Counted from the first letter of the stretch, positions 6,089-24,864 are shown. The stretch is DNA of 32,000 bases from Candidatus Methanoperedens sp. (GCA_027460535.1 JAPZAR010000007.1:90001-122000), one strand, 5' to 3'. The notes: generated by a model not told the origin, from the letters alone. Numbers and translations are program-made.

Positions 6089-6092
6089 ATTC

Positions 6093-6549: not shown

Positions 6550-6553
6550 GCGC

Positions 6554-7450: not shown

Positions 7451-7493
7451 GCACCCACTTAATGCTTTTCACATATTAAAGCATCACGCAACT

Positions 7494-7501: not shown

Positions 7502-7504
7502 CAA

Positions 7505-8579: not shown

Positions 8580-8597
8580 TTAAAAACCGCAGATAAA

Positions 8598-8766: not shown

Positions 8767-8819
8767 AATGAACGCGGATTTGTCAGGATGAACTCAGATA
8801 TATTAAAATAATAACTACC

Positions 8820-9464: not shown

Positions 9465-11038
9465 AATTCGATATAGGGAGAGAGGAATTTGTCCAGCTTG
9501 CCGGAGAAAAACCGGTTATAATCCAGTTAATGGCCAAGGTGAAAACAGCATGTTCTCCCCTTGACCTGTATGCCTCACTGGACAAGGATTGCGCTTACCT
9601 CCTTGAATCGGTTGAGAAAGAGAAAAAGCACGCACGTTTTTCGTTCGTAGGGGCGGAACCCGACGCCGTTGTCACTATCAAGGGCCGCGTGTTAACCCTG
9701 GATTACTTTAATGAATCGAATTTGATAGATCTTATTATGTCCTCCCTTTCAAATGTCTGCATTTTTAACAGGCCCGGCAAAAAAAGGAAAAATCCCATCG
9801 GTCTATCAAATATGGAAATCGGTTCAAAAACAGTGGGCATTATCAAGAACGGTTATGATACAATGGATGCAATCAGGTCGGCGTTTGCAGCAACGGGCGT
9901 GAAATTTATTGGCAGGGGTTTTGGCAGGCAGACCTTCCTGGGCGGTGCGATCGGCTTCTGTGCATATGATATGGTGTACGATTGCTGGCTCGACTTGAAG
10001 GCTAAGGAAGTAAATACTCCCGACGCACAGTTTGCGATCACAACAAAGACCGTGGTTTTCGATCACCTGACCGATGATACGTTCTTGGTCATGACGCCTC
10101 TTGTGCTGGAAGGGGATGATCCTGAAGAAGTATATATATCTGCGGAATCAGAGGCTGGAAAACTTGTCTCCAGAATAAGCAGGGCAAAACCATTGAAGAT
10201 CCCTGAGAACACCCTCACAAGCGTAACATGCAATATGAAAAAAGAGGAATATGAAGATGCCGTCAGGAAAGCTAAAAAACATATAGTTGATGGCGATATT
10301 TTCCAGGTGGTGCTCTCCCGCAGGTATGAGGTGATCACTGACCAGACGCCAATTGAACTGTATGCCGCGCTCAGGACCGTAAATCCAAGCCCCTACATGT
10401 ACCTTTTCGAGTTCGATGGGACAAGCATCATCGGCGCGAGCCCCGAAACCCTGCTTTCTGTCCATAACCGGAAAGTGATCATCAATCCTATCGCAGGCTC
10501 ATGCCCGAGGGGTAAGACAGAGGAGGAGGACCTGGAGTTCGCAAAAGAGATGCTGGGCAGCCAGAAAGAACGTGCAGAGCATGTGATGCTCGTTGACCTT
10601 GGGCGCAATGATGTCCGGATGGTATCAAAGGGAGGCACGGTAAAAGTTGAGGATTTCATGTCAGTGCTGAAATATTCCCATATCCAGCACATCGAGAGCA
10701 CAGTATCTGGCGTGCTGCGTGATGAGTGCGACCAATTCGATGCCACACGGGCAATCTTTCCAGCAGGCACTCTCTCGGGTGCGCCCAAGATACGCGCCAT
10801 GGAGATAATACATGAGCTTGAGAAAGACGGAAGAGGAATCTATGGAGGGGGCGTTGGTTATTATTCCTGGAACGGGGATGCGGATTTTGCCATTGTGATA
10901 AGAACGATAATCAAGACCGGGAAGAAGGCGATCGTACAGGCGGGTGCCGGGATAGTTGCCGATTCCGACCCTGAATACGAGTATAACGAGACCGAGCGCA
11001 AGATGGCAGCGATGATAAAAGCGATTGGAGGAACATGA
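9461..11038 (+). CDS. trpE: Anthranilate synthase component I
   Basis: 525 aa. Contains the LLESV feedback-site motif, DIFQVVLSRR, and GGGVGYYSWNGDADFAIVIRT. It overlaps both neighbours by 4 nt. Confidence 0.95.
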   Translation: MKFDIGREEFVQLAGEKPVIIQLMAKVKTACSPLDLYASLDKDCAYLLESVEKEKKHARFSFVGAEPDAVVTIKGRVLTLDYFNESNLIDLIMSSLSNVCIFNRPGKKRKNPIGLSNMEIGSKTVGIIKNGYDTMDAIRSAFAATGVKFIGRGFGRQTFLGGAIGFCAYDMVYDCWLDLKAKEVNTPDAQFAITTKTVVFDHLTDDTFLVMTPLVLEGDDPEEVYISAESEAGKLVSRISRAKPLKIPENTLTSVTCNMKKEEYEDAVRKAKKHIVDGDIFQVVLSRRYEVITDQTPIELYAALRTVNPSPYMYLFEFDGTSIIGASPETLLSVHNRKVIINPIAGSCPRGKTEEEDLEFAKEMLGSQKERAEHVMLVDLGRNDVRMVSKGGTVKVEDFMSVLKYSHIQHIESTVSGVLRDECDQFDATRAIFPAGTLSGAPKIRAMEIIHELEKDGRGIYGGGVGYYSWNGDADFAIVIRTIIKTGKKAIVQAGAGIVADSDPEYEYNETERKMAAMIKAIGGT

Positions 11039-11622
11039 AGGTCTTGTTCGTGAACAACAAGGACTCTTTCGTGTGGAACCTTGTGGATTACGTGTCCATA
11101 TTCGAACCCGATACTGTTGTGGTCCCGAACACCATTTCTCTGAAAGAAGTCCGAGAAATCAACCCTGATGCCATCGTGATATCCCCGGGCCCTGGGCATC
11201 CTGAGAACCCGAAGGATATCGGAACCTGTCTTGAGATCATAAGAGGATCGAGCGTTCCTCTCCTTGGAGTATGCCTTGGACACCAGGCAATTGCTGTGGC
11301 TTTCGGGGGAGAAGTGAGTCATTCGCCTTCCGGACCGCTCCACGGGAAGACAGCAGAGATTTACCATGACGGGAGCGGCATATACCAGGGATTGCCGAAC
11401 CCTCTTATCGGGGGAAGATACCATTCACTTGCAATAATAAAGTTGCCGCGAGAGCTTGAAGTGACAGCGAGAACCAAAGATGATATCATTATGGGAGTAA
11501 AGCACAGGAAAAGACCTATCTTCGGGCTGCAGTTCCATCCCGAGTCCGTGCTGACGCCAGATGGATTGAAGATCGTGGAGAATTTTTTGAAGCTGGCATC
11601 GAAACAACCACCATCAAAATAA
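11035..11622 (+). CDS. trpG: Anthranilate synthase component II (glutamine amidotransferase)
   Basis: 195 aa. Contains LGVCLGHQAI (catalytic Cys) and FGLQFHPES. Confidence 0.95.
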   Translation: MKVLFVNNKDSFVWNLVDYVSIFEPDTVVVPNTISLKEVREINPDAIVISPGPGHPENPKDIGTCLEIIRGSSVPLLGVCLGHQAIAVAFGGEVSHSPSGPLHGKTAEIYHDGSGIYQGLPNPLIGGRYHSLAIIKLPRELEVTARTKDDIIMGVKHRKRPIFGLQFHPESVLTPDGLKIVENFLKLASKQPPSK

Positions 11623-11751
11623 TTAATTGAATTTTATATTATAAATTCTCAATCATAATCAGTGCAAAGATTAGAATTATGCTGTTATCTCCCTGTAAAA
11701 AATTTTGAAAAAATATCCGTATTCCGAAAAAGAGGTTTGCTTCCCAAACCA

Positions 11752-11760
11752 TTAAATATA
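11752..11760 (+). promoter_or_regulatory. Candidate TATA box of tRNA-Glu
   Basis: TTAAATATA is centred about 29 nt upstream of tRNA position 1. Confidence 0.35.
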
Positions 11761-11784
11761 GTAGTGTAATATTAAGCCATCTGC

Positions 11785-11891
11785 GCTCCGATAGTGTAGC
11801 AGGCCAATCATTCTGGCCTTTCAAGTTTTATGCGCGCACAACGCTGAAATAAAGACAGCCAGAGACTCGGGTTCAAATCCCGATCGGAGCA
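11785..11891 (+). tRNA. tRNA-Glu(UUC) with a 33-nt intron at the canonical 37/38 position; CCA not encoded
   Basis: Acceptor GCTCCGA (11785-11791) pairs with TCGGAGC (11884-11890), with discriminator A at 11891. The GTGTAG...CCAATCAT D-arm is typical of archaeal tRNA-Glu. Anticodon stem CTGGC/GCCAG encloses the loop CTTTCA|intron 11824-11856|A. The T-arm is TCGGGTTCAAATCCCGA. Confidence 0.85.
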
Positions 11892-12085
11892 CTTAAATTC
11901 TTTTGATGCTCCATTCCATTGGATGTTCTTTTGTTAAAAATCGTAGAATAGAAGAGAGCACGGGTCAGGGGGGACGGATTATGTCATTACGAATTAGGAT
12001 AATTTCTCCTTGTCCTTTTTCCCATGTAATTCCCTCACAGTGACCTTAGCAATTACTTGTCCGCCATGAGGGGCGCAGTCCAGAA

Positions 12086-15000
12086 TTAGCTTACAATTAT
12101 TCTTCCTTTGGGTTTTACAACTATTACTATACTGCCCATCACACTATTGTTTCCATTGCTGCCGACGGCTTTTATGAGCGCCTGGCCAGCGGTGACACTT
12201 ACGAAATTAGCAAAACCTGAGCCGCTCACTGTCATGCCATCTAAAGGATTTTGTAAGTTGTTGAAATACCCCAGATCAGTATATAAAGTCACATTTGCAA
12301 TTGCCGGATTGCCATCGACATATGTCGCAGTTACCATTATATTGGATGGCTCACCGGTAAACACCACAGGCGGATTTGCACTTAGCTGTATATCACCCAA
12401 TGCTATGTAATTCACGCCTGCGCCGCCACCACCAAGATTTGCACCTCCAGACCATATTATGTTCACAGTAATAAACGTTCCATTCAGATCTGTATAACTG
12501 ATATTTGAAGTGGGAAGAATGAGAGGTACATAACCTGCGCCTTGCACGCCTAGCTGGTACCATACACCCCATTTTTCACCCGGATTCAGGCTTGGCAGTA
12601 CCCAGCTGAGTGTGCTTACATTTCCAACAGTTGTCACATTCGGCTCCGCATTTCCCTTTGCAGGATAGGTAGGGACTGTGAAGTTTGTGCCAATATTTGT
12701 TGTAGCATTGCTACTGTTGGATATGTAGGTTGCAGTTGCCAGCGATAGACCGGTCACATAGTTATGCGGTATCTGTAAATTCAGTGTCGGACCATGCGCT
12801 GAGAAATTTGTTATATTTGATGCAATACCTCGGAATATATTCTGTAGCACGCTGGTATTTGGTGCAAAATAGTATTGTCCACCTGTAATATTGGCAATAT
12901 CAGAGAGTCCGGGATCTACTTCAGATTCGTTAGTGCCAAAACCAATCGTATATATCGTAGTGTTATGCTTTCTGGCACTCTGCGCCTCAAGAAGCATGGA
13001 ATGGTATCCGGCATTGTCAAGGCCATCTGTCATAAGCACAATTGCGGAGTTGCCCGAGACATTGGAGAATTCGTTGTTTGCCTGATATAACCCCTCGTCT
13101 ATGGCTGTAAGTCCAACTGATGTTATTGTGTCTACAGAGTTATTAAGATGGTCTAATGTCGGATAGGAATCATTGAGAGTGGACGTAACGCGTCCTGAGT
13201 ATTGCTTCCAGTTCAAATTCTGGCTTGCGGCAATATTAAATGATGTTTCAGAGGATATATTAACTCCATCAACTTCTATATTGTAATCCGTTCCAGAATA
13301 AATTGGAGCACTTAATGTTTCAAATCCAGAATGGTTGTGGGATTGGTTGATCAGAGTTGCACTCTGGAATAAATACAGTGCAAGTTTATCATTAGCATCT
13401 GGCCATGTAAGATTGAAGGTATAGTTGGTTAGTGTTTCAACGGTATCCGTTTGAAAACCTGATACATGATATGATGCATCTGAGGTAAATCTTATTTTAA
13501 TAGTATCTCCTTTTACCCATGGACTCCAGACGTCACTAATATTAGCTCCAGGCCATGTACCATAGTTAGTATAACTGGCTATCAGATTATTTTTTCCATC
13601 TGAAATATTTACAAAATCATGATCCCCCTCTACGTCAATTTTTGTAAAATGCACTCGAATTTGACTTGCGCCAGGAACTGTTTTATTCCAGGTTAAATTT
13701 TGATTATCTGGATAGTTACCTGAACTTGGATATTTCACAGCCCAGGATGTGCTCATGGTGTTGCCGCCTGTGAAATACCCCACCCACGTGCTACCGTTGC
13801 GGATGTAGCTGGTCTGATTGCCACTATTGGTAATATTGGGTGGATTAGGGTCGCTACTGTATGCAGCAAGACCTACTCTATCTCCTCTAATTGGATCAAA
13901 ACTTGAGATAAATGAATGGGAAGCTAATTTGACAGCACTTTTCTTATCGATATAGGTAGTTATATTAAATGCGCCTGATCCATTGACTGATATGATCCAG
14001 TTTCCCGTTAGAATCGTGTTGTTGTTGTCCTCCACCGGGTCATATACCCCCGGGACTGGTGCAATCCAGACATATTTACCGATGCCTGAATTGTAATAAC
14101 CGGTACGATTGACAAAACCCGACTCGATAGATTTGGGATATTTTGTGCCATTTGGAGATGTTAGAGTAAAATTCAAATTCACATTATCAATAAAAACTTT
14201 GAAATCCGTAACAATGTCGTTGAGCGTTATGGTATCTGTCCAATTTACTGTGCTGTTTGCAATTCCACTGGCCGCATAACTATATGATGTGAATCCATCC
14301 GTTCCGTATTGCCTTGTAGTGATATCAAAATCACTTATTTGCTGGGCGATATTATTATAGATGTCCTGTAACTGGCCGGGCGTTGCCGCATAATAGTAGC
14401 TGCCCGGGCTGGCTATCGCCGACATAGTTGCGTTATCGGCATCTCTGCCGAAACCAATAGTGTATATCTTGATAAAAGAATTATTATTGATGAATGTGGT
14501 CTTGGCCGTATTTGCTTCTTTTAATGCATCGTATGTTGGACTTGAACAGGAAGGGTAACTGTCATCGCAATAGTTCCCTTTAAGATCGTATGTTGGTAAC
14601 CCGTCTGATAGCAGGATTATGTATGGACGGGCGCCCGGACGAGTATTGTTCTTAAGATAGTTCGCTGCATTCCTTATCGCCAGCGCTGTCGGTGTCCCGC
14701 CGCTTGCACTTTGGGCATCTATTTTTTGATTTATGCTGGTCATGTCATATGTTAAATCGTATAGTTTAGTAGTAGTTCCGCTAAATGTGAGCAGCCCGAC
14801 CCTGTCATTGCTTATCATATTACTATTGAATTGTTTTGCTGCTGTTTTAACGGCATCTATTTTTTTAGTCGTATTGACAATAGGATCATCCATGCTTCCC
14901 GAAGTATCGCTTACGAGCATGATATCCAATGGAGTTCCTGCATAATAATCAGGATCCATGCTTCCTGATGTGTCAAGTACAAGCATGGCATTTGCGGCAG

Positions 15001-16771
15001 GTCGTGAAAAAGGCAGCTCGCCCTCGACAGAGATAATAGTGGTAACATTGACATTACCGCCCGAGTTTATGCTTGTAGGCTCAAAAGTTATGTTAACGCT
15101 CAGGAATGGCACATCTTTTATGCCTATATTCACCGAAAAGTTTACAGTGCCATTGGACGCGATAATAGTCGCATTTCCAACTAGGGTTTTGCTTGTAAAA
15201 ACAGCCTGAATCATACCATTTGCATCAGTTGTTGAATTGATTATATCCGTGGCGTTAATACCTGCAACCGTGAGGTTTCCAAGGGCTGGGATGGTGTTGT
15301 TAAGTGTTACATTTATGCCCGGAATGGAGTGCCCCCATTCATCAAGTGATGTAAGAATAATAGAAGCGTTATGGTTGCCTTTAATATTCTGGGAGAGCAA
15401 GGTATCCGGGGAAGAATAAATAACAATTCTATTAAGGTCTCCTTCAACAAAACTCAAGTTGATACTACCGGTTATATTGGTGGGGCCGGTCTCATCCTCA
15501 TAACGGGCTGTGACAGTTACAATTTCTACATAGGGTGTTGGTCCTATAAGAGTTACAGCAGCCCCATTATTATTCAAGGGTATTATAACGGAACCTAATG
15601 AAGTGGTGAAAAGTACCTGTTTTGTAATTGGAACGCTCCTTGGAAATACGGGATTGAGGAACTCATCAACGACCTGTGCTGTGAGCCTGTATGCATCTTT
15701 GTTATTGGCATGAACCGCATCAGGAGTATGGCTAAGAAGAATTTCTGTAGCATCATCTGCAATTCCTTCGATGGTAATAAATGTATTAATGTTCCCGACT
15801 GTTATATTTATGAGGTTTTCGCCCGCACGCTTATCTGCTCTAAAAACGGTCGAAGTAAACCCATTTAGATTGGTGATATTGATTTCGGGAGTGAGATTTA
15901 GTGAATTATATTCAATTGGGCTATTATATTTTGTAGCAGGGGGTGGCGTAGCATTGAAGATCACAGCAGCATCTCCTATGGGGTTGTCATACATATCCCA
16001 TGCACCCACAGTTATTATTGAAGATGTATTCACCGTGCATTCCTTATAATAATCCACTGATATGTAGGAAAGCGCAGCCGGCGTGAATGTTATATTGAAA
16101 GTGTTTGTTGTGTTCCCCACCTTTGCTGTAATGGTAATATTCCCAGCTACCGTGGAATTGATGTTCAGAAGTATGCTTGAGGAGTTAGATGTGGAATTTA
16201 CAAGGGTCACACTGCTCCGGTCAGCAACAAGGTGCGTCAGTGCAAAGGATGCCCTTGTAATGTTCACCTGGTTTATTGTTTCTCCAAGAATGTCAAATAT
16301 CTGAATATTAAGTGTCATATTCGCAGTAGAATTTGTGTTATTGTATTGGTCGTATGCAGATAGATTCACTACTGTGGCATTGCCTACTACAAGCGGGTTT
16401 TGAGTGACATTAACAGCTATGAAAGCGGGCTCTCCTGGAAAGAAAGTCACATTTGTGGTATTATACACAGCTCCAACACTTGCGTTTATAGTAGCTACAC
16501 CGGAAATAGTTGAATTAATCCTTGTCGTGGCCATACCTGACGAATCGGTATATGCCGATGTCGTGCCTAGACTGCCGAGAGTTGTGGTGAAGTTGATAAG
16601 GGTGTTGTCCTGGGGAGTGGAGTTATCCAGGACTTGTACAGATATGTTCACACTCTCATCCACTGTTGTCTGGGAAGGGTAAGATGAGATTTCCACATCT
16701 ACGCCTGCAGCCAATCCAGTGAGCATTATTGTTAAAGTGAGCGTGAAAAAGAGATTTTTAATAGTATGCAT
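12086..16771 (-). CDS. Giant secreted surface adhesin: Sec signal, about six Ig-like (Big_1/invasin-like) repeats, nested vWA domains, CUB-like and other beta-sandwich inserts, C-terminal Ig-like domain
   Basis: A single 4.7-kb ORF. The track start is TTG at 16777, but the likely start is ATG at 16771, preceded by GAGGGT. The signal sequence is LTLTIMLTGLAAG. Two MIDAS DxSGS motifs (LVLDTSGSMD and LVSDTSGSMDD) are present, along with SGGTPTALAI, ILLSDG, GLTAIDEGL, VLMTDG and IYTIGFG. N-x-S/T sequons are extremely dense. Confidence 0.9.
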   Translation of the reverse strand: MHTIKNLFFTLTLTIMLTGLAAGVDVEISSYPSQTTVDESVNISVQVLDNSTPQDNTLINFTTTLGSLGTTSAYTDSSGMATTRINSTISGVATINASVGAVYNTTNVTFFPGEPAFIAVNVTQNPLVVGNATVVNLSAYDQYNNTNSTANMTLNIQIFDILGETINQVNITRASFALTHLVADRSSVTLVNSTSNSSSILLNINSTVAGNITITAKVGNTTNTFNITFTPAALSYISVDYYKECTVNTSSIITVGAWDMYDNPIGDAAVIFNATPPPATKYNSPIEYNSLNLTPEINITNLNGFTSTVFRADKRAGENLINITVGNINTFITIEGIADDATEILLSHTPDAVHANNKDAYRLTAQVVDEFLNPVFPRSVPITKQVLFTTSLGSVIIPLNNNGAAVTLIGPTPYVEIVTVTARYEDETGPTNITGSINLSFVEGDLNRIVIYSSPDTLLSQNIKGNHNASIILTSLDEWGHSIPGINVTLNNTIPALGNLTVAGINATDIINSTTDANGMIQAVFTSKTLVGNATIIASNGTVNFSVNIGIKDVPFLSVNITFEPTSINSGGNVNVTTIISVEGELPFSRPAANAMLVLDTSGSMDPDYYAGTPLDIMLVSDTSGSMDDPIVNTTKKIDAVKTAAKQFNSNMISNDRVGLLTFSGTTTKLYDLTYDMTSINQKIDAQSASGGTPTALAIRNAANYLKNNTRPGARPYIILLSDGLPTYDLKGNYCDDSYPSCSSPTYDALKEANTAKTTFINNNSFIKIYTIGFGRDADNATMSAIASPGSYYYAATPGQLQDIYNNIAQQISDFDITTRQYGTDGFTSYSYAASGIANSTVNWTDTITLNDIVTDFKVFIDNVNLNFTLTSPNGTKYPKSIESGFVNRTGYYNSGIGKYVWIAPVPGVYDPVEDNNNTILTGNWIISVNGSGAFNITTYIDKKSAVKLASHSFISSFDPIRGDRVGLAAYSSDPNPPNITNSGNQTSYIRNGSTWVGYFTGGNTMSTSWAVKYPSSGNYPDNQNLTWNKTVPGASQIRVHFTKIDVEGDHDFVNISDGKNNLIASYTNYGTWPGANISDVWSPWVKGDTIKIRFTSDASYHVSGFQTDTVETLTNYTFNLTWPDANDKLALYLFQSATLINQSHNHSGFETLSAPIYSGTDYNIEVDGVNISSETSFNIAASQNLNWKQYSGRVTSTLNDSYPTLDHLNNSVDTITSVGLTAIDEGLYQANNEFSNVSGNSAIVLMTDGLDNAGYHSMLLEAQSARKHNTTIYTIGFGTNESEVDPGLSDIANITGGQYYFAPNTSVLQNIFRGIASNITNFSAHGPTLNLQIPHNYVTGLSLATATYISNSSNATTNIGTNFTVPTYPAKGNAEPNVTTVGNVSTLSWVLPSLNPGEKWGVWYQLGVQGAGYVPLILPTSNISYTDLNGTFITVNIIWSGGANLGGGGAGVNYIALGDIQLSANPPVVFTGEPSNIMVTATYVDGNPAIANVTLYTDLGYFNNLQNPLDGMTVSGSGFANFVSVTAGQALIKAVGSNGNNSVMGSIVIVVKPKGRIIVS

Positions 16772-16922
16772 GGACAATACCCTCTATCTGGGATTTATTT
16801 TAACACATAGTCTCCTTCTTTTACTGTTACCTTGTGCTCATAAATACTTTTGCATGCTCATAATAAGCATTATCATAAATAATCATATTGATAATATCAA
16901 ACCAAACCTAGGTTTATTTTAA

Positions 16923-17654
16923 TCAGGTAATATCTACGTCTACCAAGTGCCGTCCTACGACTAGCATGGTGTTGTTTCGGCTTGCTATAAGGCTAGAGTC
17001 TGTGGAATTTGTTGTGGTAAAACCTATGTTTTCAAGATAGCTTCTCCATTCTGATGCATAAGTACTGTTGATTTTAAGCGTTACATTCACCAAGCTTGAG
17101 GTTTTATTAATAATGCTTTCGTTGTATCTCAAGTTGAGGGTGACAATACCATTGCCGCTTACTACTGAATCTCCTTGTATCAAAACAACGCCTATGGTGG
17201 TTATATTGGTTCCGTTCATCGAGCTCGTATAAATGCGTGGACTTGAAACAATTACACTTCCATCAGGGTATCGTTTCCATACGCCTCCATTTTCATAGGT
17301 TAGAAACTTATCATTTCTCTGGTACTCTATCTCTCCGCTAACCAGGTGTAGAGTTTCATCAGCATACTCTATAGTGATGTTTGAATTCTCTGTTGCCAAG
17401 AGGGCTGCTCCTTGGAGTTGAATTTGCAGGTTTTTCACTGGTATATGATCAAACGCCACCATTTTAATGTCACTTTGGAGGAGTATGAAGCTCTGCTCTG
17501 TACTTTCGAATATACTCGAATCCATACTTGATTGAAGCATAGGGTAGCCTGCTACATATATCAGGCTCATGGAAAGTATCACTATTGCAAATATGTAGAC
17601 GAATCCTATGGTTTCAACCACGGCGGCTTCCTTTTTGTCATCTTCTTGAATCAT
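16923..17654 (-). CDS. Pilin-like protein 5 (archaeal type IV pilin-like N-terminus)
   Basis: 243 aa. The N-terminus MIQEDDKKEAAVVETIGFVYIFAIVILSMSLIYV has a charged leader followed by a hydrophobic helix. It overlaps the upstream gene by 17 nt. Confidence 0.75.
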   Translation of the reverse strand: MIQEDDKKEAAVVETIGFVYIFAIVILSMSLIYVAGYPMLQSSMDSSIFESTEQSFILLQSDIKMVAFDHIPVKNLQIQLQGAALLATENSNITIEYADETLHLVSGEIEYQRNDKFLTYENGGVWKRYPDGSVIVSSPRIYTSSMNGTNITTIGVVLIQGDSVVSGNGIVTLNLRYNESIINKTSSLVNVTLKINSTYASEWRSYLENIGFTTTNSTDSSLIASRNNTMLVVGRHLVDVDIT

Positions 17655-18081
17655 AGCTTATCCAGTGAGTTGAATTGCTGCTATATGCAGTGCCGTTTAT
17701 AAGCATTGAACTTGCAATACCGTTTATTGTAACACTAACACTTTTCTCTGTTGTTGTAGAGTTGACATCAATAATCTCGTCTGTTCCCGCCAAATCGGCG
17801 TTAATTATGTATGTTTCTCTTCCGATCTCTGACGGGATTTTATATTCTGTTTCAATATATCCGTTCTCTGGAGCTATCAGATACATGTCCGTAATTGTGG
17901 AACTTATCAGATTGCCTATGCCCCTGTATTGTTCTTTCACCACAATGTTGCTTGGACCTTTTATCAATATATCATTCGCATTTAGAAGAACTATTACGCT
18001 AAAAACCATGAATATTCCAGAAAACAGGATGTATGCCAAAGTCATAGAAACAGCATCTTCGCCTTTGGTAAATGATTTCAT
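17638..18081 (-). CDS. Pilin-like protein 4
   Basis: 147 aa. The N-terminus is MKSFTKGEDAVSMTLAYILFSGIFMVFSVIVLL, of the xxAVS type. Its start overlaps the upstream stop in an ATGA. Confidence 0.75.
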   Translation of the reverse strand: MKSFTKGEDAVSMTLAYILFSGIFMVFSVIVLLNANDILIKGPSNIVVKEQYRGIGNLISSTITDMYLIAPENGYIETEYKIPSEIGRETYIINADLAGTDEIIDVNSTTTEKSVSVTINGIASSMLINGTAYSSNSTHWISYDSRR

Positions 18082-18530
18082 TGTTTCATCTCTATTATTT
18101 CAGGCTCTGAAGCGTAACGTGTAATACCGTCATTGTAGCTTATGTTCAACCATATTAGGTCGATATTGTGGTTGGAATTGAATACGGCTTTTGATAAGGT
18201 GATGTCTACTGTTTCACCGTGGATGGCGTAAATCATGCTCACTTGTGCATTGTAACTGCTGAGAAGCACAGTGAAGTTGGAGAGTACAGTCTCATTGCCT
18301 GTATGGTTAAGCTCCCATGCAAGTTGTGCAAGACTTTTCGCACTTTCTTGTGTTTGCGCTGTGATCTCTCTTATCGTTTCTTTGGGGAATTCAAGGGCCG
18401 CGTAGGATGAGTAGTAGTCTGTTACCGCAGCCTGGTTGATAAGCACTGCAACCAGAACCAGCGATAGGGATGTTGCGAGACCCGAAAGCGCTATCCATTG
18501 ACCATCAGTATCATCAATTACACTCGCCAT
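18078..18530 (-). CDS. Pilin-like protein 3
   Basis: 150 aa. The N-terminus is MASVIDDTDG|QWIALSGLATSLSLVLVAVLI. It overlaps the upstream gene by 13 nt. Confidence 0.7.
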   Translation of the reverse strand: MASVIDDTDGQWIALSGLATSLSLVLVAVLINQAAVTDYYSSYAALEFPKETIREITAQTQESAKSLAQLAWELNHTGNETVLSNFTVLLSSYNAQVSMIYAIHGETVDITLSKAVFNSNHNIDLIWLNISYNDGITRYASEPEIIEMKQ

Positions 18531-19030
18531 GCTATAAGTCTCACCTCTACCACTTTTAGATCATCTGATGATACGTTCCATGCACCGCCAGCCTGTATCA
18601 CCGTAGAGTTGTATAGCGTTACAAGGCGGGTGGTAACCACGGAATTCTCAACAGGTGCACCGTGTATTATAGCATGCTTTACTGCAAGGGTACCGTTTTC
18701 GGCGTATGCAAAATCAATATTGTAAATAACACCATTTAGCTGTTTGTCTATCTCAGTGTCGAGTGCCAGGAGGCTGTTGCTTTGCGGCGTTGCTTCTGTC
18801 ATATTCCACCCTGCCACGAGTTCTGTCAAGTTGAACTGGAGGGCTGTTCCTGGCGCCATGTCAAGCATCGCCAGGGTATCCGCTGCAATCTGTTTAAGCT
18901 GTACATCCATGGCAAGCCCGCTTTGAGGAGTGACGATAACTGAACTTTTAGCTATAAGCGCTACTGTTAAAACCATCAGAGATGCGGCAAAAAATCCTTC
19001 AATAGTGTGAATCTGAGCTTCCTCGTTCAT
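18518..19030 (-). CDS. Pilin-like protein 2
   Basis: The track start is GTG at 19036. The ATG at 19030 overlaps the upstream stop (ATGA) and is preceded by GGAGGTG. The N-terminus is MNEEA|QIHTIEGFFAASLMVLTVALIA. Confidence 0.7.
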   Translation of the reverse strand: MNEEAQIHTIEGFFAASLMVLTVALIAKSSVIVTPQSGLAMDVQLKQIAADTLAMLDMAPGTALQFNLTELVAGWNMTEATPQSNSLLALDTEIDKQLNGVIYNIDFAYAENGTLAVKHAIIHGAPVENSVVTTRLVTLYNSTVIQAGGAWNVSSDDLKVVEVRLIAWRV

Positions 19031-19998
19031 TTCCACACCTCCAGCACGAGAGACGCCGGCTCATATAGCGGTTCGACTTTGGCTGTATATTCGATATATG
19101 GAGGCCCTGTTCGAATGAAGCTCATTTGAGCGAAGTTGAGCTCTAACTGATAAGTAGTATTGAATGGAAACAAGGTGTGGTTGAAGATTAAGCGTAACGT
19201 ATCTGTATGGTTCAATGGATCTGAGTAGGTAAAAAAATCACTGATATTTGTTCTCTTGTACGCGATGTAATCAGAGGTTATGTTGAGGTCGCTGCCATTC
19301 AATTTTGCCCTTTTGAAACTGGCAGTAATAGGATCTGCTATATTAAAATCTATTATCTGTATTATCACATCCTCACTCTGGGGTCCACTGATGTTAATAA
19401 GTGCGTTGTCATCCGCTATCGGTGGTTCATTAGTTAATTCATCAAATCTGATGCTTGCTATATTGCCTGTTTCCACCAGTACCTGTCTTGTTATTTTGAT
19501 TATGTCCTGTGATACGGGGGGTTCCTCTCCAAAAGATATAACGGAACCGTTCATGACCATAATATTGCCACTTTGTTGAAGGGTTATGTTGTAGCCGTAA
19601 TCCACTTGAGAGCCGCTTATTTTGTCGTATAAGCCAAGTTTTCTTGTGAGAACGATTTCATTCAATCTTAAAGCATGCTGTATTTTTGTCTTATTCAGCA
19701 TTCTTGGTGTCTCTGTCTGCCTTGTGCCGGGTGTTATATCCGCAGCCAGGCCTATTCTGCTTATATTTTCCGTGTGCATCTCCCAGTCCGTACCGTTTAG
19801 AGTACTATTTTCCCACCACCCAGGGTCTTCTGAGAGTATGTTGGCTGTTCGATAGGCAACTGAGTTTAGACTTCCTTCTTCTGACACTGATATAAAAAGA
19901 CTCGGAATGAACTGTATTACGAACGCAAATGTGAGAAGAAATAGACTAATCCCCATTAGAAAGTCAACACTAATTTGCCCTTCATCAGTCAAAATCAT
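19027..19998 (-). CDS. Pilin-like protein 1 (class III signal peptide, QxSxxF type)
   Basis: 323 aa. The N-terminus MILTDEG|QISVDFLMGISLFLLTFAFVIQFI resembles the G|Q-x-S-x-E/D-F motif of methanococcal EppA-type prepilins. It is the first gene of the five-gene overlapping set. Confidence 0.75.
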   Translation of the reverse strand: MILTDEGQISVDFLMGISLFLLTFAFVIQFIPSLFISVSEEGSLNSVAYRTANILSEDPGWWENSTLNGTDWEMHTENISRIGLAADITPGTRQTETPRMLNKTKIQHALRLNEIVLTRKLGLYDKISGSQVDYGYNITLQQSGNIMVMNGSVISFGEEPPVSQDIIKITRQVLVETGNIASIRFDELTNEPPIADDNALINISGPQSEDVIIQIIDFNIADPITASFKRAKLNGSDLNITSDYIAYKRTNISDFFTYSDPLNHTDTLRLIFNHTLFPFNTTYQLELNFAQMSFIRTGPPYIEYTAKVEPLYEPASLVLEVWK

Positions 19999-20026
19999 GA
20001 TTATTATTATGATAATAAGATTCTGT

Positions 20027-20037
20027 TATATATAAAA
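20027..20037 (-). promoter_or_regulatory. Candidate TATA box for the pilin-like operon
   Basis: The minus strand reads TTTTATATATA, centred about 34 nt upstream of the ATG at 19998. Confidence 0.35.
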
Positions 20038-20105
20038 CTATTCATCGTTTTTGCATTACAATTTTTTAAAAAAGTTCATCCAGTAGTTCATTTTATCATA
20101 GATGT

Positions 20106-20312
20106 TCATACTAAATGGGGGAAAATACCCTTTTTCATTATTACGCGCCCACAGGCCCATTGACGTTTTGTACGCCTGATTGTGTGAAACCCCAAAGCAT
20201 CTCTCATAATAAAGAGCTTTTCAGAGCACGTCAAGAATTTGCCCCACTTCGTATCCTTGCTTATTATGTTATATACGAAAACCTCTTTAGCATTGTTGTG
20301 GGTAATTAGAAA
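20106..20312 (-). pseudogene. Start-less 68-codon open frame; possible recombinase/transposase remnant
   Basis: The minus-strand frame reads FLITHNNAKEVFVYNIISKDTKWGKFLTCSEKLFIMRDALGFHTIRRTKRQWACGRVIMKKGIFPHLV*. It has no upstream start and is bounded by stop codons. Adjacent frames also contain protein-like stretches. Confidence 0.2.
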
Positions 20313-20626
20313 TCAGCTTTTCTTTCATCTCTCGAAAAGCATTGATTACGTACTGATTCCTATCTTAAGAAAAAATGATTCAATATAGGTGTGGATAAAT
20401 GGGTAGGTTTGGTGGTGATATCTGGATGTGATACATAAATTAACGTCTCGTTCACTTATTTCTCGCATTTGACTATCTTGATCGCTTAAATGAGTTTCAT
20501 TCAGATTTTAATAATCTTGATGCACAAACGTCAATTTAATGTTGATAACTTTTGTGACAACTTGAACTATCCTTTTGTGTACCCGATAGATGATTTAAGA
20601 ATAATAATTTCTGGAGGCAAAGCAAT

Positions 20627-21181
20627 ATGATGGAAAAAATCAAGGATGGAAATATTAGAGCCTGGAACAGCGGAAGATTTAACAGGCTAAGTAAAAATGA
20701 AAGTGCAACGTCGACTCTTATGAGAATCATTATTGTGGCAGTAATCGCAATACTGTCAACCGTGATTGCTACAGTTGCATTCGGATTTAGTATCACAGAA
20801 TTAAAAGTACCTACTGCGAGTATAACCGTAGCAAACATTCCCGGTACCATAGGAATCGCTGACATGAAAATAGTACACAGAGGTGGAGATAGACTAGCAG
20901 GTGGGGACTGGAAGATATCCATTGTTCCTGTCGGACATCCACCCGCCTATATCGCTTCGAGTCCGGGCAGCGATTTTGTGGAAGGAAACCAGATAATAAC
21001 CGCATATGTAACAGATTTTCCTGGAGCCACTTATAATGTGACCAATACTGGCGTTAATATCATTAGTGGCGATAGTCCTGCTGCGAGATTATCATTTGGC
21101 CAGGAATACGATGTCAAAATTATGGTCTACCCCTCCAAAACTATGGTACTTGACACAGTTCTACCCAAGTTTAAAAGATAG
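20627..21181 (+). CDS. Archaeal type IV pilin, DUF1628 (Pilin_N)-like
   Basis: 184 aa. GGAGG lies 8 nt upstream. The N-terminal helix is ATSTLMRIIIVAVIAILSTVIATVAFGF, followed by the family-typical MKIVHRGGDRLAGGDWKISIV block. Confidence 0.8.
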   Translation: MMEKIKDGNIRAWNSGRFNRLSKNESATSTLMRIIIVAVIAILSTVIATVAFGFSITELKVPTASITVANIPGTIGIADMKIVHRGGDRLAGGDWKISIVPVGHPPAYIASSPGSDFVEGNQIITAYVTDFPGATYNVTNTGVNIISGDSPAARLSFGQEYDVKIMVYPSKTMVLDTVLPKFKR

Positions 21182-21257
21182 CTTTATAATTTAATCAAAA
21201 GATTTACTTCTAAAGCTTGGGATTTAGGTATTTCCTTCGGGAATTGTTGTCACCAAC

Positions 21258-21265
21258 TTTTTTTT
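21258..21265. terminator. T8/A-run tract, candidate bidirectional oligo-T terminator
   Basis: The sequence CTTTTTTTTAAAAAATTAAAAAAT lies 77 nt after the pilin stop codon. It reads as oligo-T on both strands. Confidence 0.3.
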
Positions 21266-21396
21266 AAAAAATTAAAAAATAATAATCAATTTGGCATAGT
21301 ATTAAACTACTTAACCAACCATTTCTTTCAGAGACAGGCATTTTTTTCCCGTTAATCCCTGCTCTTCCAGATAACGATCAGTTGTTAAGAGCATCT

Positions 21397-21516
21397 TCAA
21401 AGCAACCTACCATCGTATCCAGTAAAACCTTGAGAAGTCGCTACAGCTTCTAAGCGCCCCATTGCCTTTGTAAAACCACTATCGTGGCCGTGAATATCAT
21501 CCACTTTTTGAGTCAT
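21397..21516 (-). CDS. 39-codon ORF, probably the 5' fragment of a decayed gene
   Basis: GGAGGTG sits immediately upstream of the ATG at 21516. Translation is MTQKVDDIHGHDSGFTKAMGRLEAVATSQGFTGYDGRLL*. Protein-like sequence continues in shifted frames down to about 21300. Confidence 0.25.
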   Translation of the reverse strand: MTQKVDDIHGHDSGFTKAMGRLEAVATSQGFTGYDGRLL

Positions 21517-21562
21517 CACCTCCTAAATATGAGTTATAGGAGTATATGCCTTTCTTGTAGGC

Positions 21563-21579
21563 TCCCGATCGGAGTACTT
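21563..21579 (+). repeat. Distal copy of the tRNA-Glu 3'-end block (attR-like)
   Basis: TCCCGATCGGAGTACTT matches 11878-11894 at 16 of 17 positions, in the same orientation. Confidence 0.5.
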
Positions 21580-21606
21580 CTTTACCAAATTCAAAAAGGT
21601 TGGAAG

Positions 21607-21789
21607 TCACTTCTTTACACGTACCCTGGATATGATCCTTTTTTCGGGGACTTTATACGCCCACCTGCTGAAACCGTTAATATACAATATTCTTTCGCGG
21701 CGTTTCTTTTCGATGAATTGAACATCACCCTTTTCAATTTCACCCGATTCAAGTTTAAATTTGACGATGTCACCTATAGAATATTTCAT
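21607..21789 (-). CDS. Small basic protein, function unknown (SH3/KOW-like by eye)
   Basis: The track start is GTG at 21804. The ATG at 21789 has GGAGG 8 nt upstream. Translation begins MKYSIGDIVKFKLESGEIEKGDVQFIEKK... Confidence 0.6.
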   Translation of the reverse strand: MKYSIGDIVKFKLESGEIEKGDVQFIEKKRRERILYINGFSRWAYKVPEKRIISRVRVKK

Positions 21790-21990
21790 ACATTCAACCT
21801 CCACGTTTTTCTTTGTTTGTTCAATTTTCCGTTTCAGTTCGAATGTTGCTAATAATTATGATTAGTATCATAATCATTAGTATCATTGTGACCATTTGTA
21901 TACATATCCAAGTACATAAAAGTATCGATTTTATCGAGCACACATTTTTTTGCAATAGATTTATTAGACTCTCATACATTTCGTACATGC

Positions 21991-23217
21991 ATGGAATTAC
22001 TCGCGGACATAGGAGGTCGCCCGGGGCATGATTGCCGCGGTTTCTGCAGGTACTGCTATTTCAAGGGGGTTAAAGACCTGCCTGCATTTGGATGCAAGCA
22101 CTGTCCCCCATTCCAGAAAGGTTGCAACTACTGCACGAAAAGCGTAAGAGAAATTTATTCGGGCTTTAAACCTTTAGCCGTGGTTGCACAGGAAGTGAAC
22201 CAGGCAGTTTTTTTTAATAAGAACGTATCAAAATTCAATGTGAGCGGTGGCGGAGATGTGAGCTGTTATCCGGAGCTTAAATCCCTAGTGAAATTCCTCT
22301 CACAGTTTAAAAAACCAATACATCTTGGTTATACAAGCGGGAAAGGGCTTAGTAAGGAAGATGCACTTTTCTTCATAGATCATGGTGTTACCGAGGTAAC
22401 TTTTACAGTTTTCGCAACCGACCCGGAACTTCGCCGAAAATACATGAATGATAAAACAGCCGAAGATTCGCTTGAAGCCCTTCGCACCCTGGCAGGAGGA
22501 TGCGATGTTTATGCTGCTACGGTACTTATTCCGGGAGTGAACGATGGCGCTGTACTTTTAAAAACCTGTTCTGACCTTGGGGTAATGGGGGTCAAAGGTC
22601 TCATATTGATGCGCTTTGCCAATGAACCGGAGCAGGGCTTGATCCTCGGGAACGCCCAGGTAATCGAAGGTGTAGTCCCCCATACTCTTTCTGAGTTCAA
22701 ATCAATCGTGGATGACATTGACAATAAATTCCCGTTCCGTGTCACAGGAACGCCATTGTATGACCCAGAAACCGGCTCACCGTTCGCTATAAGAAATGAC
22801 AAGGCTTCACTTTCAAGGCTCCCGGCTGTGACGAAAGAAGCAACTGTGATAACGGGTGAAGTCGCAGCGCCATTACTTGGGGAAATTTTTGATAAGCTTG
22901 GCGGGCTGGTAAACGTAATCCCCGTGAAAAAAGATATTGGCTGCCTGATCACTATCGAAGATATAAAAGCACTGGATATCGAACAAATAAAGGAAACTGT
23001 TTTCTTCCCGGGCAGGGCTTTCGTCCATGATCCCGAGATCAAGAAAGTACTTACAAGCGATGGAATCGATAGGATTGTTCGCAGGGGTCCGGATATGCTC
23101 ACCGTGGATGGAGAAATGAGCATTTCAATGACGAGGGACGAAGTCCTTGCCAGAGAGTTAGAGGCGTTCACTGAATTTATCCAGATGATAAATGTGCTTG
23201 GAACCGTCCCGAAGTGA
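21991..23217 (+). CDS. mmp10: Radical SAM protein, methanogenesis marker protein 10 (Mmp10)-like
   Basis: 408 aa. The N-terminus [27 protein letters not shown] carries CX3CX2C, followed by a second Cys cluster CKHC...CNYC. Length and N-terminus match my recollection of the Mmp10 family, but the family assignment was not searched. Confidence 0.7.
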
Positions 23218-24510: not shown

Positions 24511-24864
24511 TTAGGCCACACATTCCCCGATGATTTTTGTGGCACGAAGAGTTTCAAGCGAAGTGAGCTGTTGATTTGCCTCTGCTTCCGTAATTGTCAC
24601 AAGTACGGTTGATCTTGAGGAAGGAGCTATGAGGATCCTGTTTTTCCTGAAATAAAAGATCGACTCCTTCAATCCTTCCCGGTTCATCTCTTCAAGCACA
24701 TCTCTGATATGTTTCTCCAGCCAGAACATGGTCGCCAAAAGATGCTCTCTGTATCCGGGGGTCCTGAGAGTTATTGGCACTCCATCTATCCTGTAGAGAA
24801 TACATGCCTCTACCCCTTCGATTTCATAAAGCTCATCGAGGGTCTCCTCAAGTCCTTTTGCCAT
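24511..24864 (-). CDS. Roadblock/LC7 (MglB-like) domain protein
   Basis: Contains LEETLDELYEIEGVEACILYRIDGVPI...ILIAPSSRSTVLVTITEAEAN. The start is ambiguous (TTG 24891, ATG 24882 or ATG 24864). Every option overlaps the 3' end of the upstream ATPase gene. Confidence 0.75.
   Translation of the reverse strand: MAKGLEETLDELYEIEGVEACILYRIDGVPITLRTPGYREHLLATMFWLEKHIRDVLEEMNREGLKESIFYFRKNRILIAPSSRSTVLVTITEAEANQQLTSLETLRATKIIGECVA

What the first reader, a model, noticed from the sequence alone, without database searches (positions are those of the whole stretch)
11878..21579. The tRNA-Glu 3' end is repeated 9.7 kb downstream: possible integrated pilus/adhesin island
The 17-nt block TCCCGATCGGAGCACTT (3' T-stem half, acceptor 3' strand, discriminator and 3 further nt; 11878-11894) recurs in direct orientation as TCCCGATCGGAGTACTT at 21563-21579. 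This is the attL/attR geometry left by tyrosine-recombinase elements that integrate in the T-loop/3' end of tRNA genes. Everything between the repeats is accessory surface cargo: a giant vWA adhesin, five pilin-like genes, a DUF1628-type pilin and two decayed reading frames, with no housekeeping gene. My spot counts of single 60-nt lines gave about 32-45% GC inside, against about 42-60% in the flanking trp, infB and cdhA lines. The absence of an intact integrase implies an old, immobilised island. My rough chance estimate for a 17-mer with at most 1 mismatch anywhere in 2 x 32 kb is of order 2e-4, before allowing for my freedom in choosing the block.
Basis: partly seen in the sequence, partly recalled or inferred. 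Interest (0 to 1): 0.7.

Follow-up and report, generated by a model that had tools for sequence, protein, structure and literature searches.

The report
Pilus-adhesin island inserted at tRNA-Glu
A 9.7-kb block of pilus and adhesin genes in a methane-oxidising archaeon (Candidatus Methanoperedens) was inserted at the end of a tRNA-Glu gene, as shown by a related organism whose site is empty; this is a well-known kind of genomic island, unusual only in having no recombinase gene of its own.

Summary
The window comes from a Candidatus Methanoperedens chromosome. An intron-containing tRNA-Glu(UUC) lies at 11785-11891. Its last 14 nt plus 3 trailer nt (11878-11894) recur, with one mismatch, at 21563-21579.

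A metagenome contig from a related species (L123) shows the predicted empty site: trpG, then an intact tRNA-Glu, then one copy of the 17-mer, then the window's 21580+ flank (orf65, Mmp10). The 9,685 bp between the repeats are therefore a discrete insertion.

The cargo is a large vWA/Big_1/CUB adhesin, five proteins with class-III (prepilin-like) N-termini, and a divergent Pilin_N pilin.

I found no integrase, no split "suicidal" integrase, no Cas1 and no terminal inverted repeats. The two "decayed frames" match nothing.

- The cargo is not foreign. The same operon occurs in other Methanoperedens species at core-gene-like divergence and with similarly low GC, in different chromosomal contexts without tRNAs.
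- "Old and immobilised" is not shown.

The best reading is a recombinase-less, att-flanked island, either decayed or mobilised in trans. It is a new member of a known kind and of modest interest.

The parts
11035..11622 (+). trpG (anthranilate synthase component II). This is the left chromosomal flank and the last gene of a block (3396-11622) that is syntenic in about 38 Methanoperedens genomes.
   Evidence: NCBI name.
11785..11891 (+). tRNA-Glu(UUC) with a 33-35-nt intron (about 11824-11856). This is the integration target (attB side), and it is intact after the insertion.
   Evidence: Rfam RF00005 scores 50.9 bits. ARAGORN -i calls tRNA-Glu(ttc) i(40,33). Exons are 100% and 97% identical to the tRNA in the empty-site contig L123.
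11878..11894 (+). attL core: TCCCGATCGGAGCACTT (the last 14 nt of the tRNA plus CTT).
11895..21579 (.). The inserted block, 9,685 bp (equivalently 11878-21562, because of the repeat). It is absent from the related contig L123.
   Evidence: Alignments A2 and A3. blastn shows L123 matching window 11379-11894 and 21563-22185 contiguously.
11895..12085 (.). Left terminal non-coding segment (191 bp), the putative P' arm of a former attP. It has no homologues.
12086..16777 (-). A 1,563-aa secreted adhesin with an N-terminal signal peptide, Big_1/Invasin_D3 Ig-like domains, two vWA domains with DxSxS MIDAS motifs (DTSGSM occurs twice), and a CUB domain.
   Evidence: Pfam VWA 6e-32, VWA_2, VWA_3, Big_1 and CUB. 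Sequence.
16923..17654 (-). DUF7289 protein (243 aa), pilin-like: ...KKEA|AVVETIGFVYIFAIVILS.
   Evidence: PF23960 6e-27. A haloarchaeal homologue is annotated as an archaellin/type IV pilin N-terminal domain protein.
17638..18081 (-). DUF7266-like protein (147 aa), pilin-like N-terminus: GEDA|VSMTLAYILFSGIFMVF.
   Evidence: PF23928 scores 1e-3, below its cut-off. The gene is conserved in the operon in L124-L138.
18078..18530 (-). 150-aa protein with no family, pilin-like N-terminus: DTDG|QWIALSGLATSLSLVLVAVLI.
   Evidence: It is conserved at the same operon position in all relatives.
18518..19036 (-). DUF7288 protein (172 aa), pilin-like N-terminus: EEA|QIHTIEGFFAASLMVLTVALI.
   Evidence: PF23959 1e-21.
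19027..19998 (-). DUF7287 protein (323 aa), the first gene of the operon. The DEG|QISVDFLMGISLFLL motif has G6 nearly invariant and Q7 invariant across 49 homologues. The model shows a long N-terminal helix and a beta-rich body.
   Evidence: PF23958 3e-16. Alignment A5. AF2 model pLDDT 87.8. No solved-structure match.
20056..20546 (.). About 490 bp of extra DNA in the divergent promoter spacer, absent from the orthologous 134-bp spacer of L124. It has no homologues and no clear terminal repeats.
20627..21181 (+). Archaeal type IV pilin (Pilin_N, formerly DUF1628), 184 aa, transcribed divergently from the operon.
   Evidence: PF07790 1.5e-7. NCBI names it 'type IV pilin'. It has the same divergent arrangement in L124.
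21182..21562 (.). Right terminal non-coding segment (381 bp), the putative P arm. It includes a 40-aa ORF (21397-21519, minus strand) with a GGAGGTG ribosome-binding site and no meaningful homologues.
21563..21579 (+). attR core: TCCCGATCGGAGTACTT (one C-to-T difference from attL).
21607..21804 (-). orf65 (called as 60 aa), a small conserved hypothetical protein. It is the first gene of the right chromosomal flank.
   Evidence: Adjacent to tRNA-Glu in L123, to trpG in L039, and to Mmp10 in L109 and L112.
21991..23217 (+). Mmp10, the methyl-coenzyme M reductase arginine methyltransferase (radical SAM). This is a housekeeping gene in the right flank.
   Evidence: TIGR03278 scores 621.6 bits against a cut-off of 350. 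Pfam Radical_SAM.

Best explanation
Window 11895-21579 is a 9,685-bp genomic island that entered the chromosome of this Candidatus Methanoperedens lineage by conservative site-specific recombination at the 3' end of the tRNA-Glu(UUC) gene.

Proposed mechanism: a circular DNA carrying an attP with the core TCCCGATCGGAG(C/T)ACTT recombined with the identical sequence at the tRNA end (attB). This regenerated an intact tRNA at attL and left a second copy of the 17-bp core at attR, next to the original downstream neighbour orf65.

Shown:
- the repeat;
- the intact tRNA;
- the exact empty site in a related organism;
- the gene content;
- the absence of any recombinase gene or remnant.

Inferred:
- The enzyme was a tyrosine-type integrase, as for the 409-kb element integrated at tRNA-Asp in Methanoperedens.
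- It acted in trans or was later deleted, so the block is now the archaeal equivalent of a 'cis-mobilizable element' (att sites kept, recombination genes gone).
- The 191-bp and 381-bp non-coding ends are the former attP arms.

The cargo is a complete accessory surface module: six proteins with class-III (prepilin-type) N-termini and one giant secreted vWA/Ig-like/CUB adhesin. No assembly ATPase, TadC platform or prepilin peptidase is present. The module presumably uses the cell's resident type IV pilus machinery to build or decorate an adhesive filament. This is analogous to the bacterial pairing of minor pilins with the vWA-containing tip adhesin PilY1.
For: - Repeat: exactly at the tRNA 3' end and 9,685 nt downstream, with chance expectation about 0.01.
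- tRNA: intact.
- Empty site: in L123, trpG, tRNA-Glu, a single 17-mer, orf65 and Mmp10 are contiguous. The switch from the window's attL-side sequence to its attR-side sequence falls within the 17-mer.
- Not an assembly collapse: L123 differs from the window throughout (72-98% by segment), and only 17 bp are shared between the two window sites.
- Polarity from outgroups: trpG-orf65 adjacency in L039 and orf65-Mmp10 adjacency in L109 and L112, neither with pilus genes.
- Filled state: all near-identical strains carry the block.
- Composition: the break coincides with the repeats.
- Specificity: the 17-mer is not dispersed.
- Precedents: a Methanoperedens element integrated at tRNA-Asp with 14-bp direct repeats and an adjacent tyrosine integrase (PMC13444090). 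tRNA genes, including intron-bearing ones, are the preferred archaeal attB sites, and the tRNA is reconstituted (PMC8371274). The CIME concept (PMC5704250).
- Cargo: Pfam assignments, the conserved G|Q motif, the N-terminal helix in the model, and the fact that archaeal pilin sets are often encoded apart from the ATPase/TadC and exchanged modularly (PMC4858521).
Against: - No integrase gene, pseudogene or split int(N)/int(C) was found inside or beside the block, so the enzyme is purely inferred.
- The empty site rests on one 1,123-bp metagenome contig. No second independent empty site was obtained.
- The cargo looks native rather than foreign. It shows core-like divergence between species, and the operon has similar GC in other genomes.
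- In six other lineages the same operon sits in ordinary chromosomal contexts with no tRNA, no bracketing repeats and no integrase. There is thus no evidence that this operon is habitually mobile by this route.
- The reconstructed attP matches nothing in PLSDB or IMG/VR.
- The 17-bp core is short compared with many archaeal att sites (knowledge from PMC8371274).
Confidence: 0.75

Rival explanations
1. The filled state is ancestral. The block was already bounded by the two 17-mers in the common ancestor, and the L123 lineage lost it, either by integrase-mediated precise excision or by recombination between the repeats. The window would then show an old resident island rather than a lineage-specific gain.
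For: A single copy of the core in L123 is what precise excision would also leave. The operon is widespread in Methanoperedens at core-like divergence, so the ancestor probably had it somewhere.
Against: Outgroups show trpG-orf65 (L039) and orf65-Mmp10 (L109, L112) adjacency without pilus genes. In six other lineages the operon is elsewhere and not at a tRNA. Even under this reading, the tRNA-end duplication still requires an earlier integration, so it changes only the timing and not the nature of the feature.
Confidence: 0.15
2. The insertion was made by a transposase-type mechanism that duplicates its target, with the 17 bp being a target-site duplication. An example would be a non-autonomous casposon-like element moved by a Cas1 casposase in trans. 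Casposons of Methanosarcina insert at tRNA-Leu 3' ends with 14-bp duplications.
For: The end product (one target copy in the empty site, two flanking copies in the filled site) is formally the same as an att duplication. Casposons target tRNA 3' ends in Methanosarcinales, and their duplication length varies from 14 to 35 bp (PMC4779613).
Against: The island termini show no inverted repeats. The local alignment score is 8, against a shuffled mean of 9.2, and 8 of the first 30 nt are identical in register. There is no Cas1, PolB or any transposase domain. No solo TIR-like sequences are present.
Confidence: 0.05
3. The repeat is a coincidence or the empty-site contig is an artefact. The pilus operon would then simply lie downstream of tRNA-Glu through ordinary genome rearrangement, which is frequent at this position.
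For: Synteny ends immediately after trpG in all of about 38 relatives, and different tRNAs or genes occupy that slot. The operon sits in a different place in every lineage. Only one empty-site contig exists.
Against: The chance expectation for the repeat is about 0.01 or lower. The L123 junction coincides to the base with the 17-mer. Seventeen shared bases cannot collapse a de Bruijn graph at standard k-mer sizes (inference from usual assembler settings). L123 is a distinct lineage on both sides of the junction.
Confidence: 0.04

Closest known systems
The 409-kb extrachromosomal-element-related island integrated at a tRNA-Asp gene in a Methanoperedens chromosome (Nat Commun 2026, PMC13444090)
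   Same: Same genus. Integration at a tRNA gene, short direct repeats (14 bp there, 17 bp here), and presence in only a subset of related chromosomes.
   Different: That element is 409 kb and has a tyrosine integrase next to the site. This one is 9.7 kb, targets tRNA-Glu, has no integrase, and consists almost entirely of one operon.
Classical (pNOB8-type / type II) archaeal integrative elements at tRNA genes (review PMC8371274)
   Same: attB overlaps the 3' part of a tRNA gene (intron-bearing tRNAs included). The tRNA is reconstituted, the element is bounded by direct repeats, and the empty site holds one core copy.
   Different: The defining integrase gene is absent here. The core (17 bp) is at the short end of the range.
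Cis-mobilizable elements (CIMEs) of Firmicutes: att-flanked remnants of ICEs/IMEs that have lost their integration and transfer genes (PMC5704250)
   Same: attL and attR are retained, no recombination or transfer genes remain, and only cargo is left. In principle it could be mobilised by an incoming element with the same site specificity.
   Different: CIMEs are a bacterial concept tied to conjugative elements. No accretion partner or parent element is seen here, and no mobilisation has been shown.
Bacterial minor-pilin operon with the PilY1 tip adhesin (fimU-pilVWXY1E), and vWA-bearing modular pilins such as S. sanguinis PilB (PMC8179133)
   Same: Several small pilin-like proteins are encoded together with one large vWA-domain adhesin, and assembly is by separately encoded type IV machinery.
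   Different: There is no sequence or detectable fold relationship. The proteins here belong to the archaeal families DUF7287/7288/7266/7289, and the function is untested.
Casposons of Methanosarcina mazei at tRNA-Leu (PMC4779613)
   Same: An archaeal element inserted at a tRNA 3' end with a short flanking duplication.
   Different: No TIRs, Cas1 or PolB are present here.

Membership tests
tRNA-integrated genomic island / integrative element (site-specific recombination geometry) | The distal boundary is a direct repeat of the 3' part of the target tRNA gene | tested here: met
   The 17-mer at 11878-11894 recurs at 21563-21579 with 1 mismatch.
tRNA-integrated genomic island / integrative element (site-specific recombination geometry) | The target tRNA gene remains intact after the insertion | tested here: met
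   Rfam 50.9 bits over the full-length model 1-71. ARAGORN -i calls tRNA-Glu. Exons are 100% and 97% identical to the L123 tRNA.
tRNA-integrated genomic island / integrative element (site-specific recombination geometry) | A related genome has an empty site with one core copy joining the two flanks | tested here: met
   L123 reads trpG, tRNA-Glu, TCCCGATCGGAGCACTT, orf65, Mmp10. This is a single contig only.
tRNA-integrated genomic island / integrative element (site-specific recombination geometry) | The element encodes an integrase (tyrosine or serine recombinase), usually next to an att site | tested here: not met
   No recombinase domain in any ORF or in any frame of the non-coding stretches (Pfam E<=10, PHROGs, island proteins).
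tRNA-integrated genomic island / integrative element (site-specific recombination geometry) | Composition differs from the surrounding chromosome | tested here: inconclusive
   GC 0.409 against 0.454, GC3 p=0.005, and tetranucleotide distance about 2-fold higher. However, the same operon has GC 0.41-0.44 in other species regardless of location.
tRNA-integrated genomic island / integrative element (site-specific recombination geometry) | Excision to a circular attP form and restoration of attB | not testable with these tools
   This needs read-level data or an experiment. The reconstructed attP has no match in PLSDB or IMG/VR.
SSV / pT26-2-type element with 'suicidal' integrase | attP lies inside the int gene, so int(N) and int(C) fragments abut attL and attR | tested here: not met
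   The longest open frame through the core of the reconstructed attP is 45 codons. Only 191 bp and 381 bp of non-operon DNA are available. No Phage_integr_3 hit.
Cis-mobilizable element (CIME)-like remnant | attL and attR retained, recombination and transfer genes absent | tested here: met
Cis-mobilizable element (CIME)-like remnant | Derived by decay of an autonomous element and mobilisable by an incoming element of the same specificity | not testable with these tools
   No parent element or tandem partner was found. The non-coding ends have no homologues.
Casposon or other TIR transposon | Terminal inverted repeats | tested here: not met
   The terminal alignment score of 8 is below the shuffled mean of 9.2. 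No end-to-end inverted repeat appears.
Casposon or other TIR transposon | Cas1 casposase and PolB, or a transposase | tested here: not met
Archaeal type IV pilin set (cargo) | Class III signal peptide: a short charged N-region, G/A at -1, then a hydrophobic helix of about 20 residues | tested here: met
   Read directly from the six N-termini. G6 is nearly invariant and Q7 invariant among 49 DUF7287 homologues. The model has helix 4-29. Pilin_N Pfam hit for 20627-21181. No dedicated predictor (FlaFind) was run.
Archaeal type IV pilin set (cargo) | Globular domain resembling solved pilins | tested here: inconclusive
   Foldseek against the PDB gives a best E-value of 0.011 and TM below 0.2, with no pilin among the hits.
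Archaeal type IV pilin set (cargo) | Linked assembly ATPase, TadC platform and prepilin peptidase | tested here: not met
   None is present in the island, the window or the relatives' operon loci. Assembly would have to rely on machinery encoded elsewhere, which is known for archaeal pilin sets (PMC4858521).

The most novel reading that the evidence does not exclude
The block could be a functional, recombinase-free cassette. This would be an archaeal counterpart of a cis/trans-mobilisable element, whose 17-bp core and about 190-bp and 380-bp arms are recognised by an integrase encoded elsewhere (on a Methanoperedens plasmid, Borg or jumbo extrachromosomal element). Such an integrase would shuttle native surface-adhesion operons between chromosomes and extrachromosomal elements. 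This could explain why the same intact six-gene operon sits at a different locus in every Methanoperedens lineage examined.
Probability: 0.15. Interest if true: 0.55.

Novelty: new member of a known kind. Interest (0 to 1): 0.33.

Why it matters
Methanoperedens archaea oxidise methane anaerobically and carry a notable range of extrachromosomal elements, but small chromosomal islands in them are little documented. This locus is a cleanly delimited filled/empty pair, with base-exact junctions, at an intron-bearing tRNA-Glu. It shows that an adhesion-related type-IV-pilus accessory module can be gained or lost as one unit between closely related lineages. That bears on cell-cell and cell-mineral attachment in these consortia. 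The absence of any recombinase makes it a useful substrate for identifying which Methanoperedens integrase recognises this site. Beyond that, it is an ordinary example of a well-known phenomenon.

Tried and rejected
1. Empty site via trpG-anchored genomes: 80 loci, about 38 of them Methanoperedens. Synteny ends right after trpG in all of them, and none has tRNA-Glu or island genes there. Uninformative at that distance.

2. Empty site via Mmp10-anchored metagenome contigs: 35 loci at 80-86% identity with no synteny on either side. Only L109 and L112 keep orf65-Mmp10, and intergenic DNA is not alignable.

3. A partial tRNA remnant at attR: Rfam at E<=10 over 21350-21700 found nothing.

4. Recombinase remnants: Pfam at E<=10, PHROGs at E<=1, and tblastn/tblastx/blastn against 1.4 Mb of related loci, on all frames of the non-coding stretches. 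All negative.

5. The 40-aa ORF next to attR against 1.84 billion representatives: only translated tandem-repeat junk and a weak Big_1-repeat match.

6. Split 'suicidal' integrase: rejected.

7. Casposon or TIR transposon: rejected.

8. Reconstructed attP against PLSDB, and the att core against IMG/VR: nothing relevant.

9. An apparent ancestry break at the att site (95% identity on the right against 84.5% on the left of L123). It dissolved on segment-wise analysis. Coding identity is 89-91% on both sides, and only orf65 and its upstream spacer are unusually conserved.

10. A second junction view from variant contigs L121, L122, L139 and L140. They are either filled, too short, or from another population.

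11. A possible parallel insertion after tRNA-Met in L038 relative to L040. It has no tRNA-end duplication, so it is a different kind of indel.

12. Fold assignment of DUF7287: the model is confident but has no significant PDB match.
Full report

Yes. TCCCGATCGGAGCACTT lies at 11878-11894, and TCCCGATCGGAGTACTT lies at 21563-21579 on the same strand. These are the only two matches in the window at up to 2 mismatches. Dinucleotide-preserving shuffles expect 0.01 matches. An independent repeat finder reports the same pair at a spacing of 9,685 nt.

The premise that the first copy is the end of a tRNA needed checking, because default ARAGORN finds no tRNA in the window. The gene carries an archaeal intron. 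Rfam's tRNA model matches 11785-11891 at 50.9 bits over its full length, with a 35-nt insertion in the anticodon loop. The 17-mer therefore covers the last 14 nt of the tRNA plus 3 trailer nt. It does not extend further on either side.

The motif is not a dispersed repeat. In 1.42 Mb of fetched Methanoperedens/Methanosarcinales DNA it occurs only at the orthologous attR position of near-identical strains. In IMG/VR it gives only 7 chance hits, all inside coding regions of unrelated phages.

**2. Where the window comes from, and the comparative test**

Exact-protein look-ups place the window in a Candidatus Methanoperedens chromosome (GCA_027460495.1 and Logan/ENA assemblies). All near-identical strains carry the block.

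More distant relatives were uninformative. About 38 Methanoperedens genomes keep the gene order 3396-11622, but synteny ends immediately after trpG in every one of them. Contigs anchored on the right-flank gene Mmp10 (80-86% identity) share no neighbours, apart from orf65 in two of them.

The decisive locus came from the 90%-identity cluster of the small right-flank protein. Its variant lies on a 1,123-bp JGI contig, L123. Read in the window's orientation, L123 runs as follows:
- the trpG 3' end;
- the spacer;
- a complete intron-bearing tRNA-Glu;
- one copy of TCCCGATCGGAGCACTT;
- then directly CTTAACCAAACTCAAAAAG..., orf65 and the start of Mmp10.

This is the window's 11379-11894 joined to 21580-22185.

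L123 is a distinct lineage on both sides of the junction. By segment, its identity to the window is:

| Segment | Identity |
|---|---|
| trpG coding | 89% |
| trpG-tRNA spacer | 72% |
| tRNA exons | 100% and 97% |
| tRNA intron | 82% |
| orf65 | 98% |
| Mmp10 | 91% |

The two window sites share only 17 bp, so an assembly collapse is not a credible explanation.

Outgroups support insertion rather than loss. trpG is directly followed by an orf65 homologue in L039. orf65-Mmp10 adjacency is kept in L109 and L112. In neither case are pilus genes present.

**3. What the block contains**

On the minus strand, an operon runs from 19998 down to 12086. It encodes, in order:
- DUF7287;
- DUF7288;
- a 150-aa protein with no family;
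- a DUF7266-like protein;
- DUF7289;
- a 1,563-aa protein with a signal peptide, Big_1/Invasin Ig-like domains, two vWA domains (DTSGSM MIDAS motifs) and a CUB domain.

A Pilin_N (formerly DUF1628) pilin is transcribed divergently at 20627-21181.

All six small proteins begin with a short charged segment, then G or A, then a hydrophobic helix of about 20 residues. This is the class-III signal-peptide pattern. In a 49-sequence DUF7287 alignment, G6 is nearly invariant and Q7 is invariant. The AlphaFold model (pLDDT 87.8) has a long N-terminal helix followed by a beta-rich body. The globular part has no significant match among solved structures, so 'pilin-like' rests on the N-terminus, not the fold.

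No assembly ATPase, TadC or prepilin peptidase is linked, either here or in relatives. Archaeal pilin sets are known to be encoded separately and to be swapped among assembly systems (PMC4858521).

**4. What is not there**

No integrase, transposase, Cas1 or PolB domain occurs in any ORF or in any frame of the non-coding stretches.

The archaea-specific 'suicidal' integrase scenario, in which attP lies inside int, is excluded. No frame longer than 45 codons crosses the core of the reconstructed attP, and only 191 bp and 381 bp of non-operon DNA exist at the ends.

The termini have no inverted repeats, which argues against a casposon or other TIR transposon. Those elements also use tRNA 3' ends in Methanosarcina (PMC4779613).

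The two 'decayed frames' fare as follows:
- The first (20106-20312) lies inside about 490 bp of extra spacer DNA that is absent from the orthologous 134-bp spacer of L124.
- The second corresponds to a 40-aa ORF with a good ribosome-binding site. Its only hits among 1.84 billion representatives are repeat junk and a weak Big_1 match.

Neither can be called a pseudogene of anything.

**5. Corrections to the 'foreign island' picture**

The composition break is real: GC 0.409 against 0.454, GC3 0.404 against 0.481 (p=0.005), and tetranucleotide distance about twice that of flank windows.

However, the same operon occurs in many Methanoperedens lineages (81% down to about 50% identity) and in Methanolobus and Methanococcoides. 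For one genome pair, the cargo proteins are 78-87% identical while trpE and trpG are 76% and 86% identical. The operon's GC is 0.41-0.44 elsewhere too. So the cargo is a native Methanoperedens accessory operon, and its low GC is partly intrinsic.

In six other lineages the operon sits in six different ordinary contexts. One example is between the SecE-NusG-L11 and S10-EF1a-EF2 clusters in L137. None of these has tRNAs, bracketing repeats or integrases. The att-flanked arrangement is specific to the window's lineage.

**6. Mechanism**

The geometry has four elements: an intact tRNA, a 17-bp direct repeat of its 3' end, a single core copy in the empty site, and discrete non-coding arms. This is the signature of conservative site-specific recombination at a tRNA gene.

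This route is well documented in archaea, including for intron-bearing tRNAs (PMC8371274). In Methanoperedens itself, a 409-kb element sits at tRNA-Asp with 14-bp repeats and an adjacent tyrosine integrase (PMC13444090).

Because no recombinase is present, the enzyme either acted in trans or was deleted afterwards. What remains corresponds to what is called a cis-mobilizable element in bacteria (PMC5704250).

The single C/T difference between the cores may be a later mutation in the non-functional attR copy, or it may have been inherited from attP. It cannot date the event.

I give 0.75 to this explanation as a whole. I give about 0.9 to 'discrete insertion bounded by the tRNA-end repeat', and less to the enzyme class.

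**7. Verdict**

This is a new member of a known kind: a tRNA-integrated genomic island, here recombinase-less and carrying a pilin-set-plus-vWA-adhesin operon, in an ANME-2d archaeon. Interest is modest.

Noticed in passing
window 11785-11891: Default ARAGORN reports no tRNA in the whole window, because tRNA-Glu has a 33-35-nt intron. Between the window and L123 the intron differs at 6 of 34 positions, while the exons differ at 1 of 76.
   Followed up: partly
window 11622/11623 and loci L006-L043: The position immediately downstream of trpG is a universal synteny breakpoint in about 38 Methanoperedens genomes. Different species have different occupants there: tRNA-Glu (window, L123), an intron-bearing tRNA-Gly(CCC) (L025), tRNA-Met (L038, L040), an inverted KaiC-like/AF0774 pair (L034, equivalent to window 24511-25741), or orf65 (L039). 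This may be a tRNA-associated rearrangement hotspot.
   Followed up: partly
L038 about 10704-12803, compared with L040 about 10704: L038 has a 2.1-kb insertion starting 11 nt after tRNA-Met. It encodes a 460-aa ATPase-like protein and a 163-aa protein, and lies upstream of the Mre11/Rad50-like genes. The close relative L040 lacks it. There is no duplication of the tRNA end, so it is a different kind of indel from the window's island.
   Followed up: partly
window 20056-20546: About 490 bp of extra DNA lies in the divergent spacer between the DUF7287 gene and the Pilin_N gene, relative to the 134-bp orthologous spacer in L124. It has no homologues and no clear terminal repeats or target duplication.
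   Followed up: partly
window 21607-21990 (orf65 and its upstream spacer): orf65 and the orf65-Mmp10 spacer are 98% and 96% identical between the window and L123, while neighbouring coding regions are 89-91% identical and other spacers 72-85%. The small protein has no family assignment. In other species it recurs next to trpG or Mmp10.
   Followed up: partly
window 21397-21519 (minus strand): An intact 40-aa ORF is preceded by GGAGGTG, just inside attR. It has no meaningful homologues, so whether it is a gene is unknown.
   Followed up: yes
L137 10001-17548: In one Methanoperedens lineage, the same pilin/vWA operon lies between the SecE-NusG-L11 cluster and the S10-EF1a-EF2 cluster, interrupting two of the most conserved archaeal gene neighbourhoods.
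   Followed up: no
L122 2794-4382, and the 196-bp L122/L123 overlap: trpE is split into 87-aa and 442-aa products in L122, which indicates a frameshift or an assembly error. L122 and L123, from the same metagenome, are only 88.8% identical in their trpG overlap, so that sample holds at least two related Methanoperedens populations.
   Followed up: partly
L124 9240-10746: In the closest operon relative (81% identity), no intact vWA adhesin gene was called downstream of DUF7289. Only 461 residues align, at 53% identity, and the contig ends there, so the adhesin may be degraded or highly divergent.
   Followed up: no
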